DNA from: a virus
IMG/VR virus record: IMGVR_UViG_3300044816_000098
Coordinates: 1 to 64,000 of that record
DNA: 64,000 nucleotides
Reading direction: 5' to 3' (one strand)
The position numbers and the translations under genes were made by a program. Numbering within the stretch: position 1 is the stretch's first letter; every line of letters starts with the position of its first letter. Of this stretch, positions 11,329 through 58,914 are shown in pieces. Below the pieces are notes generated by a model, which saw only the letters and a list, made by a program, of their open reading frames with translations, did no database searches and had not been told where the DNA came from.

Positions 11329-12378
11329 ATGACCCAGACCGACGCATTGCCCATGACCGACGAAGAGATCGAAGCCCTTCTTCGTCGCGGCGACGAGGAC
11401 GACGAGCCCCGCTTCACCAACGGCTACCGGCGTGAGCCGCACCTGTTCCTGAAGGAGACTGGCGACTCCGCCATCGTCCGCCCCCTGATGGACTCGAAGG
11501 ACTGGTTCCGGGCCCGGACGCATAAGTTCGTCAACGTCACCAAGCCGAAGCCCGAGGGGTACGAGGGCAAGTGGCCGGAGATGATGACCGGCACGTGCCG
11601 CAAGGAGCCGCTCTTCAAGAAGCTCTACCCGGGCGGCTGCCCGCTCTGCGCCTCCCCCCTCCGCAACAAGTTCGACAAGACCATGGAGGAGTCTGCGCAG
11701 GAACTGCGCTACACCCTCGCGGTCGAGCGGGAAGAGGTCACCGGCGACGGCTCCCCCGAGATGGGCGGCCCGGAACTGGAGGGGAAGAAGGGGTGGCAGG
11801 ACAAGATGATCAAGGTCCCTGTCTTCGACGACAAGGGCGAACCGATCAAGGACCAGTTCGAACTGCACCCCTCGATCGTGATCATCAGCGGCACCATGTT
11901 CCAGATGTTCGCCGCGCTCAAGGCGCTCGGTGAGGCGTACGACGGCACGCTGAAGGACCGCGACTACCGGGTCAAGCGCGTCCCGAACCCCAACCCGAGC
12001 AGCAAGGGCGACATCTTCGTCTGGATCCCGCTGACGCCGATCGACGCGATCAAGCCGGGCACGGACCACTGGGACACCTACCTCGCCGCCATAAAGGCGT
12101 GGACCCCCACTGGTCTCAATCTGGCCCGCATCATCGTTGAGAAGTCCAGCGAGGAGTTCTACGACCGCTTCTTCACCACGGACGGCGTCTACGTCGTGCC
12201 GCAGCAGGCCCGGCCGAGGACTGGCGGTTTCTCTGTCGCCTCCACCCCGTCCGTCTCCACCCCCAGCGAGGCCCCTGACGCGGACAAGCTCGCGGCCATG
12301 CGGGCCCGTGTCCTGTCGCAGCAGCCCGCCGCCGCCGCGCAGGCGCCCGCTGACCAGGCGCCTGCCACCGAGGGCTGA
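11329..12378 (+). CDS. single-stranded DNA-binding protein (gp32-like, putative)
   Basis: Position before the polymerase, TC...CPLC motif, low-complexity C-terminal tail. Confidence 0.55.
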   Translation: MTQTDALPMTDEEIEALLRRGDEDDEPRFTNGYRREPHLFLKETGDSAIVRPLMDSKDWFRARTHKFVNVTKPKPEGYEGKWPEMMTGTCRKEPLFKKLYPGGCPLCASPLRNKFDKTMEESAQELRYTLAVEREEVTGDGSPEMGGPELEGKKGWQDKMIKVPVFDDKGEPIKDQFELHPSIVIISGTMFQMFAALKALGEAYDGTLKDRDYRVKRVPNPNPSSKGDIFVWIPLTPIDAIKPGTDHWDTYLAAIKAWTPTGLNLARIIVEKSSEEFYDRFFTTDGVYVVPQQARPRTGGFSVASTPSVSTPSEAPDADKLAAMRARVLSQQPAAAAQAPADQAPATEG

Positions 12379-55972: not shown

Positions 55973-56192
55973 GCCCATGAGGCCCTTCGGGGTCATCCTG
56001 ACGGAGCTGGTCGACGTGACCGAGCAGCTCAACGAGCTGAAGGCCCGGCACAGGGCGCTGGTCATCGAGGCGGACGAGCACGTGGTGGCCTTCGCGCCCG
56101 GGGCGACCCGGGCGAAGATCGCTGTCTTCGCAGATCTGTACCCCAGCACGATGTACCGCTGGTTGAAGAGTGCGGGGCACCCCGTCACCTAG
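55965..56192 (+). CDS. small HTH protein
   Basis: ATRAKIAVFADLYPSTMYRWLK HTH pattern; GGAGG RBS. Confidence 0.6.
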   Translation: MPEPMRPFGVILTELVDVTEQLNELKARHRALVIEADEHVVAFAPGATRAKIAVFADLYPSTMYRWLKSAGHPVT

Positions 56193-56263
56193 GGGTTGTA
56201 CTCCAGGAATTCCCGTAGTAGCGTTCCACCTGCCAGAGAAACACCGACTCCAAGGAGGCCCAC

Positions 56264-56848
56264 ATGGGTAATCAGCTCAAGGTCCAGCTCACCCTCACCG
56301 GCACCGCACCGATCCTCATGCACAACGCGCGGCTGGCGGACCCGCTGGACAGCTACACCAAAATGCTCAAGGTGGTGTCATCCAAGCGGACCAAGACCGA
56401 CGACGACCACGAGGAGATGGCCCGCGTCGAGTTCCTTGGGGGCCTGTACTGCGACGACGTCATGGGTCCGTACATCCCGGGCGTCAACCTCCACCAGTGC
56501 CTGATCGAGGGAGCCAAGCTCACCCGGCGCGGTCGGCACGTGGAGCGCGGCGTGGTGGTCATGGAGGAACAGCTCCTCCTCGCATACAGCGGCCCCCGCA
56601 CGCCGGACGAGCTGTACGCGGACAAAAACTTCCGCTCGCGGCTCTCGGTGGGTGTCACCACCTCCCGCGTCATGCGGACCCGCCCGAAGTTCTCCTCGTG
56701 GGCCCTGGAGGCCAACCTCGTCGTGGACACCGGGCAGCTCGACCTCAACGACATCAACGAGATCAGCGAGACGGCCGGGATGATGATCGGCCTGGGCGAC
56801 TACCGCCCGCGCTACGGCCGGTTCGATGTCGTGGTGACGGAACTCTGA
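56264..56848 (+). CDS. stand-alone RAMP/Cas7-like RNA-binding protein (candidate Vipr-like effector)
   Basis: N-terminal strand LTLTGTAPILMHN, PYIPG..L, RTRPKF..W, C-terminal Gly-rich loop IGLGDYRPRYGRF; own promoter; array begins right after the stop codon. Confidence 0.75.
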   Translation: MGNQLKVQLTLTGTAPILMHNARLADPLDSYTKMLKVVSSKRTKTDDDHEEMARVEFLGGLYCDDVMGPYIPGVNLHQCLIEGAKLTRRGRHVERGVVVMEEQLLLAYSGPRTPDELYADKNFRSRLSVGVTTSRVMRTRPKFSSWALEANLVVDTGQLDLNDINEISETAGMMIGLGDYRPRYGRFDVVVTEL

Positions 56849-57279
56849 CGTTCAGGGCAAGGCATGGCAAGGCTCGGTAGAGCTGGGCCAGGCTGGTCAA
56901 GGCAGGGTTCCCCATCAGGGCTTCACGGCGCTAGTGGGGGCGTTCAAGGCGGGGCGTGGCAAGGCACGGTACGGCACGGCGGGGCAAGGCAGGGTTCCCC
57001 TTCAGGATTTAAAAGTCCTGGAGGGGGCGCTCTGGGCGAGGCTTGACGGGGCTGGGTATGGCCAGGTCTGGCGGGGAAAGGCAAGGCAGGGTTCCCCTCC
57101 TCAGGATCACACCTGAGGAGGGGGCTTTGAGGCGGGGCATGGGCAGGACCAGGCGGGGCGCGGTGTGGCCGTGTAGGGCACGGCGTGGCAGGGTTCTTCT
57201 CCCTCTGGGTCAGACCAGGGGAGAGGGCAATCAAGGCGCGGCACGGCGCGGTTAGGCAAGGCAAGGCATGGCAGGGATC
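56849..57279 (+). ncRNA. array 1: five (GGY-NN)n units, the first four closed by hairpins (candidate guide RNAs)
   Basis: 5-nt periodicity with variable NN, conserved end GGCAG-GGTTC, then GC hairpin and CGTTCA-like linker. Confidence 0.8.
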
Positions 57280-57302
57280 ACCACCGACTCACAGGAGGAA
57301 CG

Positions 57303-57881
57303 ATGAAGAAGTTCGAGGCCGAGGACCAACAGCCTCGGTGGGCACGGGTCTACAACGGCATCCGCGCCCTGAAGACCGGTGAGGCGGCCACCTATCACCA
57401 GCTCAGCGAGTGGGCAGGGGTGGATGTCACCGGGACCAACAGGGCCTGCGTCTACGAGGCGATCCGGTTCTTGCAGCGCAAGGACCACCGGACGCTCGCC
57501 TGTATCCCCACGGTGGGCTACATGGTGGTTCCGGCCAGTGCTCACGAGGATCTCGCCAAGAAGCACAACAAGAAGGCGGGTCGTCAGCTCCGCGAGGCCA
57601 TCGGCAAGGTCCAGTCGGCTGACCGGAACTACCTGACCCCGGCCGAGGCCCGGCGGATGGATTCCATGGAGGTGGACCTCTCCCGGCAGAGGCACATGAT
57701 CATCGGCCTGAGTCGGCGACTCGACAGGACCGAGACCGCCATCAAGGAGGCCCGCCAGCGCGACCGCGAGGCCAAGGGCACCATCGCTCAGCTCTCCGAG
57801 GAGAAGGACGCTCTGGCCACCGAGGTGCGCGAGCGCCTGGCGCGCCTGGAGCAGGTCCTCCTGGACCGCACGGCGGCCTGA
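57303..57881 (+). CDS. winged-HTH-like plus coiled-coil protein embedded between the arrays
   Basis: GACTCACAGGAGG RBS; ATYHQLSEWAGVD...IPTVGYMVV; heptad C-terminus. Confidence 0.7.
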   Translation: MKKFEAEDQQPRWARVYNGIRALKTGEAATYHQLSEWAGVDVTGTNRACVYEAIRFLQRKDHRTLACIPTVGYMVVPASAHEDLAKKHNKKAGRQLREAIGKVQSADRNYLTPAEARRMDSMEVDLSRQRHMIIGLSRRLDRTETAIKEARQRDREAKGTIAQLSEEKDALATEVRERLARLEQVLLDRTAA

Positions 57882-57896
57882 TCCCCAGACTTCTTG

Positions 57897-58136
57897 GGCA
57901 CGGCTCGGCTCGGTAGGGCCAGGCGTGGCACGGCAAGGCGCGGCAGGGTTCCCGCCCTGGGGATCACACCTCAGGGCGGGGCGTTCCGTGGCAAGGCAAC
58001 GCAAGGCGGGCCGGGGCGCGGTGGGGCAAGGTACGGCTTGGCATGGCGAGGTTCCCCACCAGCACTTCACGGTGCTGGTGGGGGCGTTCAGGGTTAGGCA
58101 GGGCTGGGCTGGACAAGGTAAGGCAGGACATGGGAG
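57897..58136 (+). ncRNA. array 2: three (GGY-NN)n units
   Basis: Same unit grammar as array 1. Confidence 0.8.
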
Positions 58137-58173
58137 GAGACCCCGCAGGTCAGATGACTTGCGGGGTCTCTTC
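58137..58173 (+). terminator. hairpin closing the RAMP/array transcription unit
   Basis: GAGACCCCGCAGGTC...GACTTGCGGGGTCTC TTC, immediately before promoter 58185. Confidence 0.65.
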
Positions 58174-58254
58174 ATGCAGCGGGGTTGTACTCCTGCAATC
58201 CTTGTAGTAGCTTTCTCTTATCACCATGAACCACTGACTCCCCTGGAGGGTCAT

Positions 58255-58914
58255 ATGCAGGACGAGAACCCCATCGAGGCGGAGCAGCGCAGGCGCCAGG
58301 AGGCCCTGGACCAGGCGTGTGCTGACCGGTACCTCGCCATGCTGGAGGTCGAGCACGGGGACACCTTCCGGGAGGCCGTCAAAGAGGGTGAGGAGTACGA
58401 GCGCCGGAAGGAGGAGCTTCGCGCCCACATCCTGAAGACGTACGACGTGGGCGATTTCAACCAGGAGAACCTGCATGGTGATCCGCCTGCGCTCACTCCG
58501 GAACAGGCCGAGAAGCTCCAGAAGGCGGCCAAGCGGGTGGCGGATACAGCCCGCAAGCACCTGTATGAGCAGACGCTCTCTCCGGAGGAAATCCGGGAGG
58601 ACTTCGTTCCCCGCATCGGTGGCTGGACGCCCGGCAGGCACAAGCCGGAGACCCACGAGGGCCTGCTCTTCGAGCTGGAGGCGGAGCGGGCCATGTTCCT
58701 CGGCAAGGGCGCGCCCAAGGATCCGGACCCCGACCTCCAGGCCCTGCACCAGGAGCTGCATCAGCTCCACGTGACCTACCAGCGCACGGGGGACCGCTCC
58801 CTGTTGCTCCCGATCGCAGACCTGACCGCGCGGTACAACGCGCTGATCAAGCCGAAGCCCCGGATGGACAAGCCGAAGAACCCCAACCCCTTCCCCCGCT
58901 TCACCGTCGACTAG
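58255..58914 (+). CDS. hypothetical protein
   Basis: Promoter 58185 and RBS motif. Confidence 0.7.
   Translation: MQDENPIEAEQRRRQEALDQACADRYLAMLEVEHGDTFREAVKEGEEYERRKEELRAHILKTYDVGDFNQENLHGDPPALTPEQAEKLQKAAKRVADTARKHLYEQTLSPEEIREDFVPRIGGWTPGRHKPETHEGLLFELEAERAMFLGKGAPKDPDPDLQALHQELHQLHVTYQRTGDRSLLLPIADLTARYNALIKPKPRMDKPKNPNPFPRFTVD

What the first reader, a model, noticed from the sequence alone, without database searches (positions are those of the whole stretch)
56196..58173. Stand-alone RAMP/Cas7-like gene plus arrays of (GGY-NN)n units: candidate RNA-guided system with a non-contiguous code
Seen in sequence: one transcription unit, from promoter 56196 to hairpin 58137, holds a 194-aa protein with RAMP-like motifs (LTGTAPILMHN, YIPG, Gly-rich GLGDYRPRYGRF) and then 8 non-coding units. 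Each unit is a run of 8-13 pentamers with a near-fixed GGC/GGT and a free dinucleotide; most end GGCAG-GGTTC and run into a GC hairpin. NN strings are U1 (56856) AA AT AA TC AG TG CA TG AA AG TC; U2 (56948) GG GT AA AC AC AC GG AA AG TC; U3 (57035) GA TT GG TG AT CA CT GG AA AA AG TC; U4 (57131, one extra G) GG AT AG CA GG GC GT CG AG AC GT AG TC; U5 (57235) GC AC GC TA AA AA AT AG TC; U6 (57897) AC TC TC AG CA GT AC AA GC AG TC; U7 (57990) AA AA AA GG GG GC GG AA AC TT AT GA TC; U8 (58092) TA AG TG TG AA AA AG AT. Established: Cas7-family RAMPs polymerise on guide RNA with a fixed nucleotide step. Inference: one protomer binds each GGY and displays NN for pairing, so each unit is a distinct guide. 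No cas1/2/3/5/6 and no nuclease lie in the unit, suggesting silencing by binding. This fits my unverified recollection of phage VIPR (viral interference programmable repeat) systems, so the class may already be reported.
Basis: partly seen in the sequence, partly recalled or inferred. Interest (0 to 1): 0.97.

Follow-up and report, generated by a model that had tools for sequence, protein, structure and literature searches.

The report
VIPR guide-RNA system in an actinophage

Summary
Eight tracts of GGY-NN pentamers lie at 56856-58131. All are on the + strand, and there is no comparable tract elsewhere in the window. 74 of 85 pentamers are exact GGY, and the NN positions are close to maximum entropy.

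The 194-aa protein (56264-56848) is a full-length homologue of the solved SUSP1 Vipr protein (PDB 36pp, E 2.6e-34). It keeps the residues that hold the two guanines. Its model (pLDDT 92) matches Csm3/Cas7.

It is a Vap1-like winged-helix plus coiled-coil protein that follows vipr in 60 related loci.

Six units end in a GC hairpin with covarying stems. Unit 5 has no hairpin and runs into the vap ribosome-binding site. Unit 8 ends in the operon terminator.

134 of 163 loci that encode a homologue carry co-oriented arrays. The 154-kb phage genome has one vipr gene and five more units outside the window.

No natural target was found. Transcription could not be tested.

Verdict: a new member of the published VIPR kind, most like type II, with minor layout variants. 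This scan had already followed up the distal array of the same genome.

The parts
56192..56232 (+). Promoter-like element GGGGTTGTACTCC...GTAGTAGCGT (TTGTAC, 17 nt, TAGCGT), followed by the phage's usual leader CACCGACTCC..GGAGG
   Evidence: I counted about 20 clear + strand copies of this motif in the genome, each about 35-45 nt upstream of an RBS and ATG. The generic sigma-70 scan does not find it.
56264..56848 (+). vipr: 194-aa Vipr protein (minimal RAMP with RRM core, thumb and glycine-rich loop)
   Evidence: PDB 36pp_D 'SUSP1 Vipr protein', E 2.6e-34, residues 8-191 against 5-189. phrog_4652, E 1.8e-57. AF2 pLDDT 92.4. Foldseek top hits are Csm3/Cas7. H20, K36, R140, D179 and R181 are invariant in 26 homologues.
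56856..56947 (+). vrRNA unit U1: 11 pentamers, then hairpin tail and GCGTTCA junction
56948..57034 (+). vrRNA unit U2: 10 pentamers plus hairpin tail
57035..57130 (+). vrRNA unit U3: 12 pentamers plus hairpin tail
57131..57234 (+). vrRNA unit U4: 2 pentamers, a one-base slip, 11 pentamers, then hairpin tail
57235..57302 (+). Unit U5: 9 pentamers ending GGCAG-GGATC with no hairpin. It runs straight into the leader and RBS of vap.
   Evidence: The same tail-less array abutting vap occurs in L035, L116, L168, L176, L101 and L086.
57303..57881 (+). vap: 192-aa Vap1-like accessory protein with an N-terminal winged helix (about residues 12-75) and a long coiled coil (79-191)
   Evidence: Homologous to the gene that follows vipr in 60 related loci. 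hhalign against the SUSP2 gene after vipr gives 96.7%, E 3.3e-10; against MakoManhole gp77 'DNA binding protein' it gives 99.7%. AF2 pLDDT 95.5. Weak fold matches to GntR, MarR and PhoP winged-helix regulators.
57897..57989 (+). vrRNA unit U6: 11 pentamers plus hairpin tail
57990..58091 (+). vrRNA unit U7: 13 pentamers plus hairpin tail
58092..58175 (+). Unit U8: 8 pentamers, then an 18-bp GC hairpin (about 58134-58173, -36.6 kcal/mol) that probably ends the operon
   Evidence: The next copy of the promoter motif starts at 58181.

Best explanation
The stretch is one operon of a type II-like VIPR system in a complete 154-kb phage of Actinomycetota.

A phage promoter at about 56192 most likely drives vipr, five guide units, vap and three more guide units, and transcription most likely ends at the hairpin at about 58134-58173. 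The precursor is presumably cut into vrRNAs. Each vrRNA would be a tract of 8-13 GGY-NN repeats closed by a GC hairpin tail.

By homology with the solved SUSP1 complex, Vipr protomers coat each repeat tract as a helical filament. They bury every GGY through H20, R140, D179, Y180 and R181, and they present the NN pairs. The NN pairs read double-stranded DNA with one target base skipped between pairs (NNxNNx). The R-loop grows from the tail end, and the bound filament blocks transcription. No nuclease is present.

The winged-helix, coiled-coil Vap1-like protein probably enhances this silencing.

The 8 local guides and 5 distal guides most likely aim at competing mobile elements such as prophages, satellites or rival phages of the unknown host. 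They do not aim at the phage itself.

Shown here: the anatomy, the homology, the conserved contact residues, the linkage of arrays to the gene, the covarying tails and the lack of self-targets. Inferred: transcription, processing, filament formation, DNA silencing and the kind of target.
For: - Vipr homology to the solved SUSP1 Vipr is full-length, E 2.6e-34.
- The SUSP1 residues that read G1 and G2 and hold DNA (H17, K33, R39, K82, R138, D177, W178, R179; paper 10.64898/2026.04.26.720927) align to H20, K36, R42, K85, R140, D179, Y180 and R181. In 26 homologues H20, K36, R140, D179 and R181 are invariant and R42 is nearly invariant (at least 90%). K85 and Y180 vary, for example Y180 is W or H in some rows.
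- The RAMP fold is supported by an AF2 model with pLDDT 92.4 whose top matches are Csm3/Cas7.
- Eight arrays lie only at this locus, only on the gene's strand, and far above the shuffle controls.
- 134 of 163 homologue loci carry co-oriented arrays: 371 on the same strand against 8 on the opposite strand.
- 9 of 16 tail-hairpin pairs show compensatory changes among nine paralogous tails.
- The vap gene is homologous to the gene after vipr in SUSP2 and MakoManhole.
- No 1-nt-skip self-target in the 154-kb genome exceeds the shuffled guides, as the VIPR paper reports for its systems.
- The record is a complete virus with a single vipr gene.
- The published description of VIPR matches point by point.
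Against: - No natural target was found for any guide tested, so the inter-element conflict role is inferred from relatives.
- The tails are plain hairpins. The pseudoknot described for the SUSP1 clade is not evident.
- The tail model finds nothing in relatives, so the tail sequence is lineage-specific.
- SUSP1 residues E71 and M72 of the pyrimidine pocket are V74 and N75 here.
- U5 and U8 lack the standard tail and may not be mature guides.
- The last two NN (AG, TC) are constant in most units. It is unclear whether they pair with a target.
Confidence: 0.9

Rival explanations
1. The system regulates the phage's own genes. The vrRNAs would guide Vipr to sites in this genome to time early and late transcription, rather than attacking other elements.
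For: The operon uses the same promoter family as about 20 other early-looking units. No external target was found.
Against: Under the 1-nt skip rule, no guide matches the own genome better than order-shuffled guides do. Best scores are 13-17 of 16-26 informative bases, and only D3 tops its shuffled maximum, by one base.
Confidence: 0.04
2. The locus is a decaying or inactive remnant. The genes and repeats are recognisable but no longer work together.
For: U5 and U8 lack canonical tails. 11 of 85 pentamers depart from GGY. U4 has a register slip. No targets were found.
Against: Both ORFs are intact with strong RBSs and a coding GC3 of 0.91 and 0.84. All key contact residues are kept. Tail stems keep pairing through compensatory changes. 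Internal degeneracy of vrRNAs is described as normal. A relative with 92% identical Vipr also keeps vap.
Confidence: 0.04
3. The pentamer tracts are not guide RNAs. They could instead be coding low-complexity sequence, G-quadruplex-forming DNA or ordinary tandem repeats that happen to lie beside a RAMP-like gene.
For: ORFs of 60-70 aa can be drawn over the tracts. GG every 5 nt could form two-tetrad G4 structures.
Against: A period of 5 is incompatible with codon structure. ORFs over the tracts have flat GC1/2/3, for example 0.73/0.55/0.69, against 0.63/0.41/0.91 for vipr. The same strand-specific tracts accompany Vipr homologues in 134 of 163 loci across phyla. For SUSP1 they have been shown to be Vipr-bound RNAs.
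Confidence: 0.02

Closest known systems
Type II VIPR system of Escherichia phage SUSP1 (and the Pseudomonas fulva prophage): Vipr + vap1 + vrRNAs. bioRxiv 10.64898/2026.04.26.720920 and 10.64898/2026.04.26.720927; PDB 36pp
   Same: - The Vipr protein is homologous over its full length (about 35% identity, E 2.6e-34).
- The G1 and G2 contact residues are conserved.
- The repeat is GGY-NN.
- Each vrRNA has 8-13 repeats.
- Each repeat tract is followed by a structured tail.
- A Vap1-like DNA-binding gene follows vipr.
- The system is phage-borne.
- There are no cas genes and no nuclease.
- There are no self-targets.
   Different: - The host is a high-GC actinophage, not an enterobacterial phage.
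- Five units are inserted between vipr and vap. In 47 of 60 relatives and in SUSP2, vap directly follows vipr.
- Tails are simple GC hairpins flanked by GGTTC and GCGTTCA, not a pseudoknot.
- One tail-less tract serves as the vap leader.
- The genome holds 13 units in three places.
- Targets are unknown.
Solo (orphan) vrRNAs of F5 satellites and VIPR-null SUSP1-like phages (bioRxiv 10.64898/2026.10.15.759431)
   Same: Guide units sit away from any vipr gene. Here these are D1-D4 at genome 151052-151382 and O1 at 111498-111557.
   Different: In this phage the distant units are in the same genome as a working-looking vipr, so they extend the phage's own repertoire rather than hijacking another element's protein. 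O1 lies antisense inside a structural gene.
Class 1 CRISPR backbone subunits Cas7/Csm3/Cmr4 (for example PDB 5yjd, 6ifn, 6xn3)
   Same: RRM core, thumb and glycine-rich loop fold (Foldseek probability about 1.0, TM 0.4-0.5). Polymerises on a guide RNA with a fixed step and flips out bases at each step.
   Different: About 10% sequence identity. There is no CRISPR repeat-spacer array, no cas5, cas6, cas10, cas1 or cas2, and no acquisition module. The guide is non-contiguous (2 of every 5 nt). The target is dsDNA read with a 1-nt skip.

Membership tests
VIPR system | Vipr protein: a minimal RAMP homologous to characterised Vipr proteins | tested here: met
   phmmer against PDB 36pp_D SUSP1 Vipr gives E 2.6e-34 over the full length. 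tblastn hits SUSP2 and other Felixounavirus-type phages at 35-36% identity. The AF2 model matches Csm3/Cas7.
VIPR system | Residues that sequester GGY and hold DNA in the solved complex (SUSP1 H17, R138, D177, W178, R179; K33, R39, K82) | tested here: met
   They align to H20, R140, D179, Y180, R181, K36, R42 and K85. In the clade H20, K36, R140, D179 and R181 are invariant and R42 is nearly invariant; K85 and Y180 vary. W to Y is conservative. The pyrimidine-pocket residues E71 and M72 are not conserved (V74, N75).
VIPR system | vrRNA genes: tandem GGY-NN (YNNGG) repeats, at least 4 units, conserved GGY and hypervariable NN, next to vipr on the same strand | tested here: met
   Eight tracts of 8-13 units. 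74 of 85 pentamers are exact GGY. NN entropy is 1.74 and 1.95 bits. The association holds in 134 of 163 homologue loci.
VIPR system | Structured, conserved 3' tail after the repeat tract | tested here: met
   A GC hairpin follows GGTTC in U1-U4, U6 and U7. 9 of 16 pairs are compensatory among nine tails. It is a hairpin, not the SUSP1-clade pseudoknot. The closest relatives have the same plan with other flanks.
VIPR system | vap accessory gene beside vipr (type II: predicted DNA-binding Vap1) | tested here: met
   57303-57881 is a winged helix plus coiled coil. Profile match to the SUSP2 gene after vipr is 96.7%, E 3.3e-10. The exact type number could not be checked because the paper's type tables are not held.
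VIPR system | vrRNAs are transcribed and co-purify with Vipr | not testable with these tools
   No sequencing run was listed for the stretch.
VIPR system | Guides match natural targets under the 1-nt skip rule (at least 80% of NN), and there are no self-targets | tested here: inconclusive
   No self-target was found. No convincing external target was found in 163 related loci, three related phage genomes, IMG/VR exact scans for U1, U3, U6, U7 and D4, or the actinobacterial genomes searched (5 plus 401) with U7.
CRISPR-Cas class 1 | CRISPR repeat-spacer array and cas operon (cas5, cas6, large subunit, cas1-cas2) | tested here: not met
   Only two genes lie in the unit. Neither hits a Pfam, NCBIfam or PADLOC cas model. 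The repeats are 5-nt units, not 25-40-nt repeats with spacers. Rfam finds nothing.

The most novel reading that the evidence does not exclude
This actinophage lineage may wire VIPR differently from the described systems in three ways.

(a) A tail-less repeat tract forms the 5' leader of the vap mRNA. This recurs in at least six relatives. Vipr filament assembly on the leader could therefore couple Vap synthesis to the Vipr and guide load.

(b) Guide genes are dispersed through the genome. One (O1) is written antisense inside an in-frame insertion of the prohead protease gene.

(c) Some guides, such as U7 whose NN decode to a K-G-G-A-G-K-T P-loop, may aim at conserved protein motifs through the codon-like periodicity. 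That would let one guide hit a whole gene family.
Probability: 0.2. Interest if true: 0.55.

Novelty: new member of a known kind. Interest (0 to 1): 0.3.

Why it matters
It shows that a reader working from raw sequence can recover a VIPR system, and it confirms the published definition on independent DNA.

It adds a well-resolved actinophage example. The locus has 13 guides, plain hairpin tails and an array-interrupted vipr-vap operon, and guide units lie far from vipr, one of them inside a structural gene.

These variants are useful for defining what is essential in vrRNA tails and processing. They also give a starting point for porting the system to Actinomycetota.

It does not change the picture of how VIPR works.

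Tried and rejected
**Target hunt under the 1-nt skip rule**
- Own genome: nothing meaningfully above shuffled guides.
- 163 Vipr-homologue loci: only short U8 hits at chance level.
- Full genomes of three related phages (G405, G406, G407): nothing meaningfully above shuffled guides; two truncated guides only equal their shuffled maxima.
- IMG/VR exact scans:
  - U7 10-NN and U3 10-NN: 0 hits.
  - U6 9-NN: 0 hits.
  - D4 9-NN: 1 hit, but the extension matches only 2 of 8 bases.
  - U1 9-NN: 2 hits in 35% GC contigs, which fits chance.
  - U7 8-NN core: 39 hits. About 27 of them are in one P-loop gene family (AEGGAGKTF), but they match only 18 of 26 bases over the whole guide.
- U7 with up to 3 mismatches: 0 hits in 5 Vipr-bearing actinobacterial genomes and 0 hits in 401 genomes of the class.

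**Other searches that led nowhere**
The whole guide matches only 17 of 26 bases, which is chance level.
- Sequencing runs: none was listed, and no RNA holder was listed.
The 152-kb relative with 92% identical Vipr (P0001) therefore could not be fetched, and NN turnover between near-identical phages could not be compared.
- The covariance model of the tail found no match in 74 related loci.
- Rfam: no family, including no hammerhead.
- The generic promoter and terminator scan found nothing.
- Megablast of the locus against GenBank phages found no match.
- No GGY arrays were found in the homologous protease insertions of relatives.
- Complex prediction was not used, because the filament is already solved for a homologue.
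Full report

Yes. Reading 56000-58400 and running a period-5 GGY run-finder with a 5-unit floor on both strands of the 64-kb window gives eight runs. All are on the + strand, at 56856, 56948, 57035, 57142, 57235, 57897, 57990 (in register from 57975) and 58092. The only other run is a weak 5-unit run on the minus strand at 11404.

With a 6-unit floor, block shuffles give 0.14 runs per window.

74 of 85 pentamers are exact GGY. Entropy is 0.28, 0.46 and 0.90 bits at G, G and Y, against 1.74 and 1.95 bits at N and N.

**2. The protein**

ORF 56264-56848 has no Pfam, NCBIfam or PADLOC family. It belongs to phrog_4652, function unknown, E 1.8e-57.

phmmer against all PDB chains gives a single hit: 36pp_D, 'SUSP1 Vipr protein', E 2.6e-34, residues 8-191 against 5-189.

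The cryo-EM paper (10.64898/2026.04.26.720927) names the contacts:
- H17 and D177 read G1.
- R138 and W178 hold G2.
- R179 caps the pyrimidine.
- K33, R39 and K82 hold DNA.

In the alignment these are H20, D179, R140, Y180, R181, K36, R42 and K85. In 26 homologues H20, K36, R140, D179 and R181 are invariant and R42 is nearly invariant; K85 and Y180 vary.

An AF2 model built on that alignment has pLDDT 92.4. Its best Foldseek matches in the PDB are Csm3 and other Cas7 backbone subunits of type III and VII complexes, with probability about 1.0 and TM 0.4-0.5.

**3. The published class**

A full-text search finds three 2026 preprints on VIPR. The discovery paper defines:
- a minimal RAMP (Vipr) and a vap accessory gene;
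- vrRNAs of 9-16 YNNGG repeats followed by a structured tail;
- DNA recognition in which NN pairs read the target with one base skipped;
- transcriptional silencing;
- targets in rival phages and satellites;
- seven types.

The locus matches this description.

**4.

ORF 57303-57881 (192 aa; RBS AGGAGG; GC3 0.84) lies between U5 and U6. tblastn shows homologues directly downstream of vipr in relatives.

A 34-sequence profile of it matches two annotated genes:
- the gene after vipr in phage SUSP2, at 96.7% probability, E 3.3e-10;
- Gordonia phage MakoManhole gp77, 'DNA binding protein', at 99.7%.

The AF2 model (pLDDT 95.5) is a winged helix at residues 12-75 followed by long helices at 79-191. 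It has weak fold matches to GntR, MarR and PhoP-type DNA-binding domains.

It is therefore a Vap1-like protein, which places the system nearest type II. In the 92%-identical relative, Vap is only 70% identical.

**5. Anatomy of the units**

U1-U4, U6 and U7 end in GGCAG (GGCGA in U7), then GGTTC, then a 10-13-bp GC hairpin, then GCGTTCA or a variant of it. That last motif also precedes the next tract.

In an alignment of nine paralogous tails (six local, three distal), 9 of 16 predicted pairs keep pairing through changes on both sides.

No pseudoknot is evident. Rfam finds nothing, so there is no ribozyme between units.

The closest relatives use the same plan with different flanks: GGCAG-GGAGAAGG, hairpin, CCTTCGTCGTTGA. 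This explains why a covariance model of this phage's tails finds nothing in them.

U5 ends in GGCAG-GGATC and runs with no hairpin into the vap leader. U8 runs into an 18-bp hairpin of -36.6 kcal/mol at about 58134-58173.

**6. The transcription unit**

The generic scan finds no promoter or terminator. However, the sequence at 56192 belongs to a motif family, GGGGTTGTACTCC...GTAGTAG(A/C)GT, read as TTGTAC-17 nt-TAG(A/C)GT. I counted about 20 clear copies among the + strand matches between 31 and 80 kb. Each is followed by a CACCGACTCC..GGAGG leader and an ATG. The next copy is at 58181, just after the U8 hairpin.

One promoter-to-hairpin unit is therefore a reasonable inference. It has not been shown.

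**7. Linkage in relatives**

The Vipr query has 379 homologues at E up to 1e-5. Loci fetched from IMG/VR, metagenomes and genomes were scanned.
- 134 of 163 carry at least one array of 6 or more GGY units on the gene's strand.
- There are 371 same-strand arrays against 8 on the opposite strand.
- In 47 of 60 loci with both genes, vap follows vipr directly and the arrays lie upstream or downstream.
- In 13 of 60, arrays are inserted between the two genes, as here. In six of those, a tail-less array ends within 45 nt of the vap start.

The closest cellular homologues are all Actinomycetota, at 56% identity or less. The closest cultured-phage homologues are in Gordonia and Mycobacterium phages.

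**8. Genome context**

The window is the first 64 kb of a 154,156-bp IMG/VR virus record. The record has direct terminal repeats, is rated complete, has 65.6% GC and has a single vipr gene. It encodes a DnaE-type polymerase that is only about 31% identical to those of cluster C mycobacteriophages.

Five further units lie outside the window, on the minus strand.
- D1-D4 lie at 151052-151382. They sit behind a diverged copy of the same promoter motif and end in a terminator-like hairpin. The D3 tail is identical to the U1 tail.
- A solo unit, O1, lies at 111498-111557 with its own hairpin.

O1 lies antisense inside the prohead protease gene. It falls within an in-frame insertion of about 48 codons relative to the proteases of Rhodococcus phage E3 and Mycobacterium phage Phrappuccino. 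Related phages have other, larger insertions at the same site, and those hold no arrays.

**9. Targets**

Under the published NNx rule, no guide matches the phage's own genome better than shuffled guides do. That agrees with the absence of self-targeting reported for other VIPR systems.

No convincing external target was found in related loci, three related phage genomes, IMG/VR exact scans, or the actinobacterial genomes searched (5 plus 401).

The U7 core does decode to a P-loop (G-G-A-G-K-T-F/L-I/M). It picks up a P-loop gene family in IMG/VR, but the whole guide matches only 69% of informative bases. This remains a lead and is not a target.

**10. Verdict**

The locus is a new member of the published VIPR kind, nearest type II.

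Its points of difference are modest:
- an actinophage host;
- plain hairpin tails;
- arrays between vipr and vap, with a tail-less tract as the vap leader;
- 13 guides in three places, one inside a structural gene.

Expression, RNP formation, silencing and targets remain untested. Earlier notes of this scan had already identified the distal array of this genome as a VIPR array. I found that array independently.

Noticed in passing
outside the window: genome 151052-151382, minus strand (L165:1553-1883): A second array of four GGY-NN units (D1-D4) lies about 94 kb from vipr, behind a diverged copy of the phage promoter motif. It ends in a terminator-like hairpin. The 47-nt tail of D3 is identical to that of U1, which suggests duplication or recombination between the two arrays.
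   Followed up: partly
outside the window: genome 111455-111557, minus strand (L166:956-1058): A solo unit, O1, has 12 pentamers (11 exact GGY) plus a 10-bp hairpin. It lies antisense inside the prohead protease ORF, within an in-frame insertion of about 48 codons that is absent from the E3 and Phrappuccino homologues. The protein there reads as a proline-periodic linker.
   Followed up: yes
window 31014, 32658, 34333, 34864, 43040, 44829, 47584, 49999, 54446, 56192, 58181, 62438 (+ strand); more copies up to about 80 kb of the genome: About 20 copies of a promoter-like motif GGGGTTGTACTCC-N-GTAGTAG(A/C)GT (TTGTAC, 17 nt, TAGAGT). Each is followed by a conserved leader CACCGACTCC..GGAGG and an ATG. 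This is probably the phage's early or middle promoter set.
   Followed up: partly
window 57235-57302; L035:5553-5637; L116:1595-1679; also L168, L176, L101, L086: A repeat tract without a hairpin tail directly abuts the vap ribosome-binding site in this phage and in at least six relatives. It may act as a regulatory leader for vap.
   Followed up: partly
L035:4837-5500; L116:916-1493; L101 and L011 upstream of vap: In more distant relatives the vrRNA tails contain a tRNA-like minihelix: a GGTTCGA-type T-loop hairpin inside an acceptor-like stem, followed by CCCACGC. This hints at processing by tRNA-maturation enzymes. The word tRNA does not occur in the main text of the VIPR discovery paper.
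   Followed up: no
G405:C1:94867-96770 and G406:C1:30115-30830 (relatives' prohead protease genes): The site that holds O1 here carries in-frame insertions of about 1.9 kb and 0.7 kb in two related phages, inside open frames of 1274 and 787 aa. It is a hypervariable linker in a structural gene.
   Followed up: partly
window 56856-58131 (all units): The first N of each NN pair is strongly biased: A 48%, C 7%. The last two pairs are constant (AG, TC) in most units. It is unclear whether these pair with a target or belong to the tail.
   Followed up: no
window 11404-11443, minus strand: This is the only other period-5 GGY run in the window. It has 5 units with gaps, no tail and no neighbouring array, and is probably chance.
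   Followed up: no
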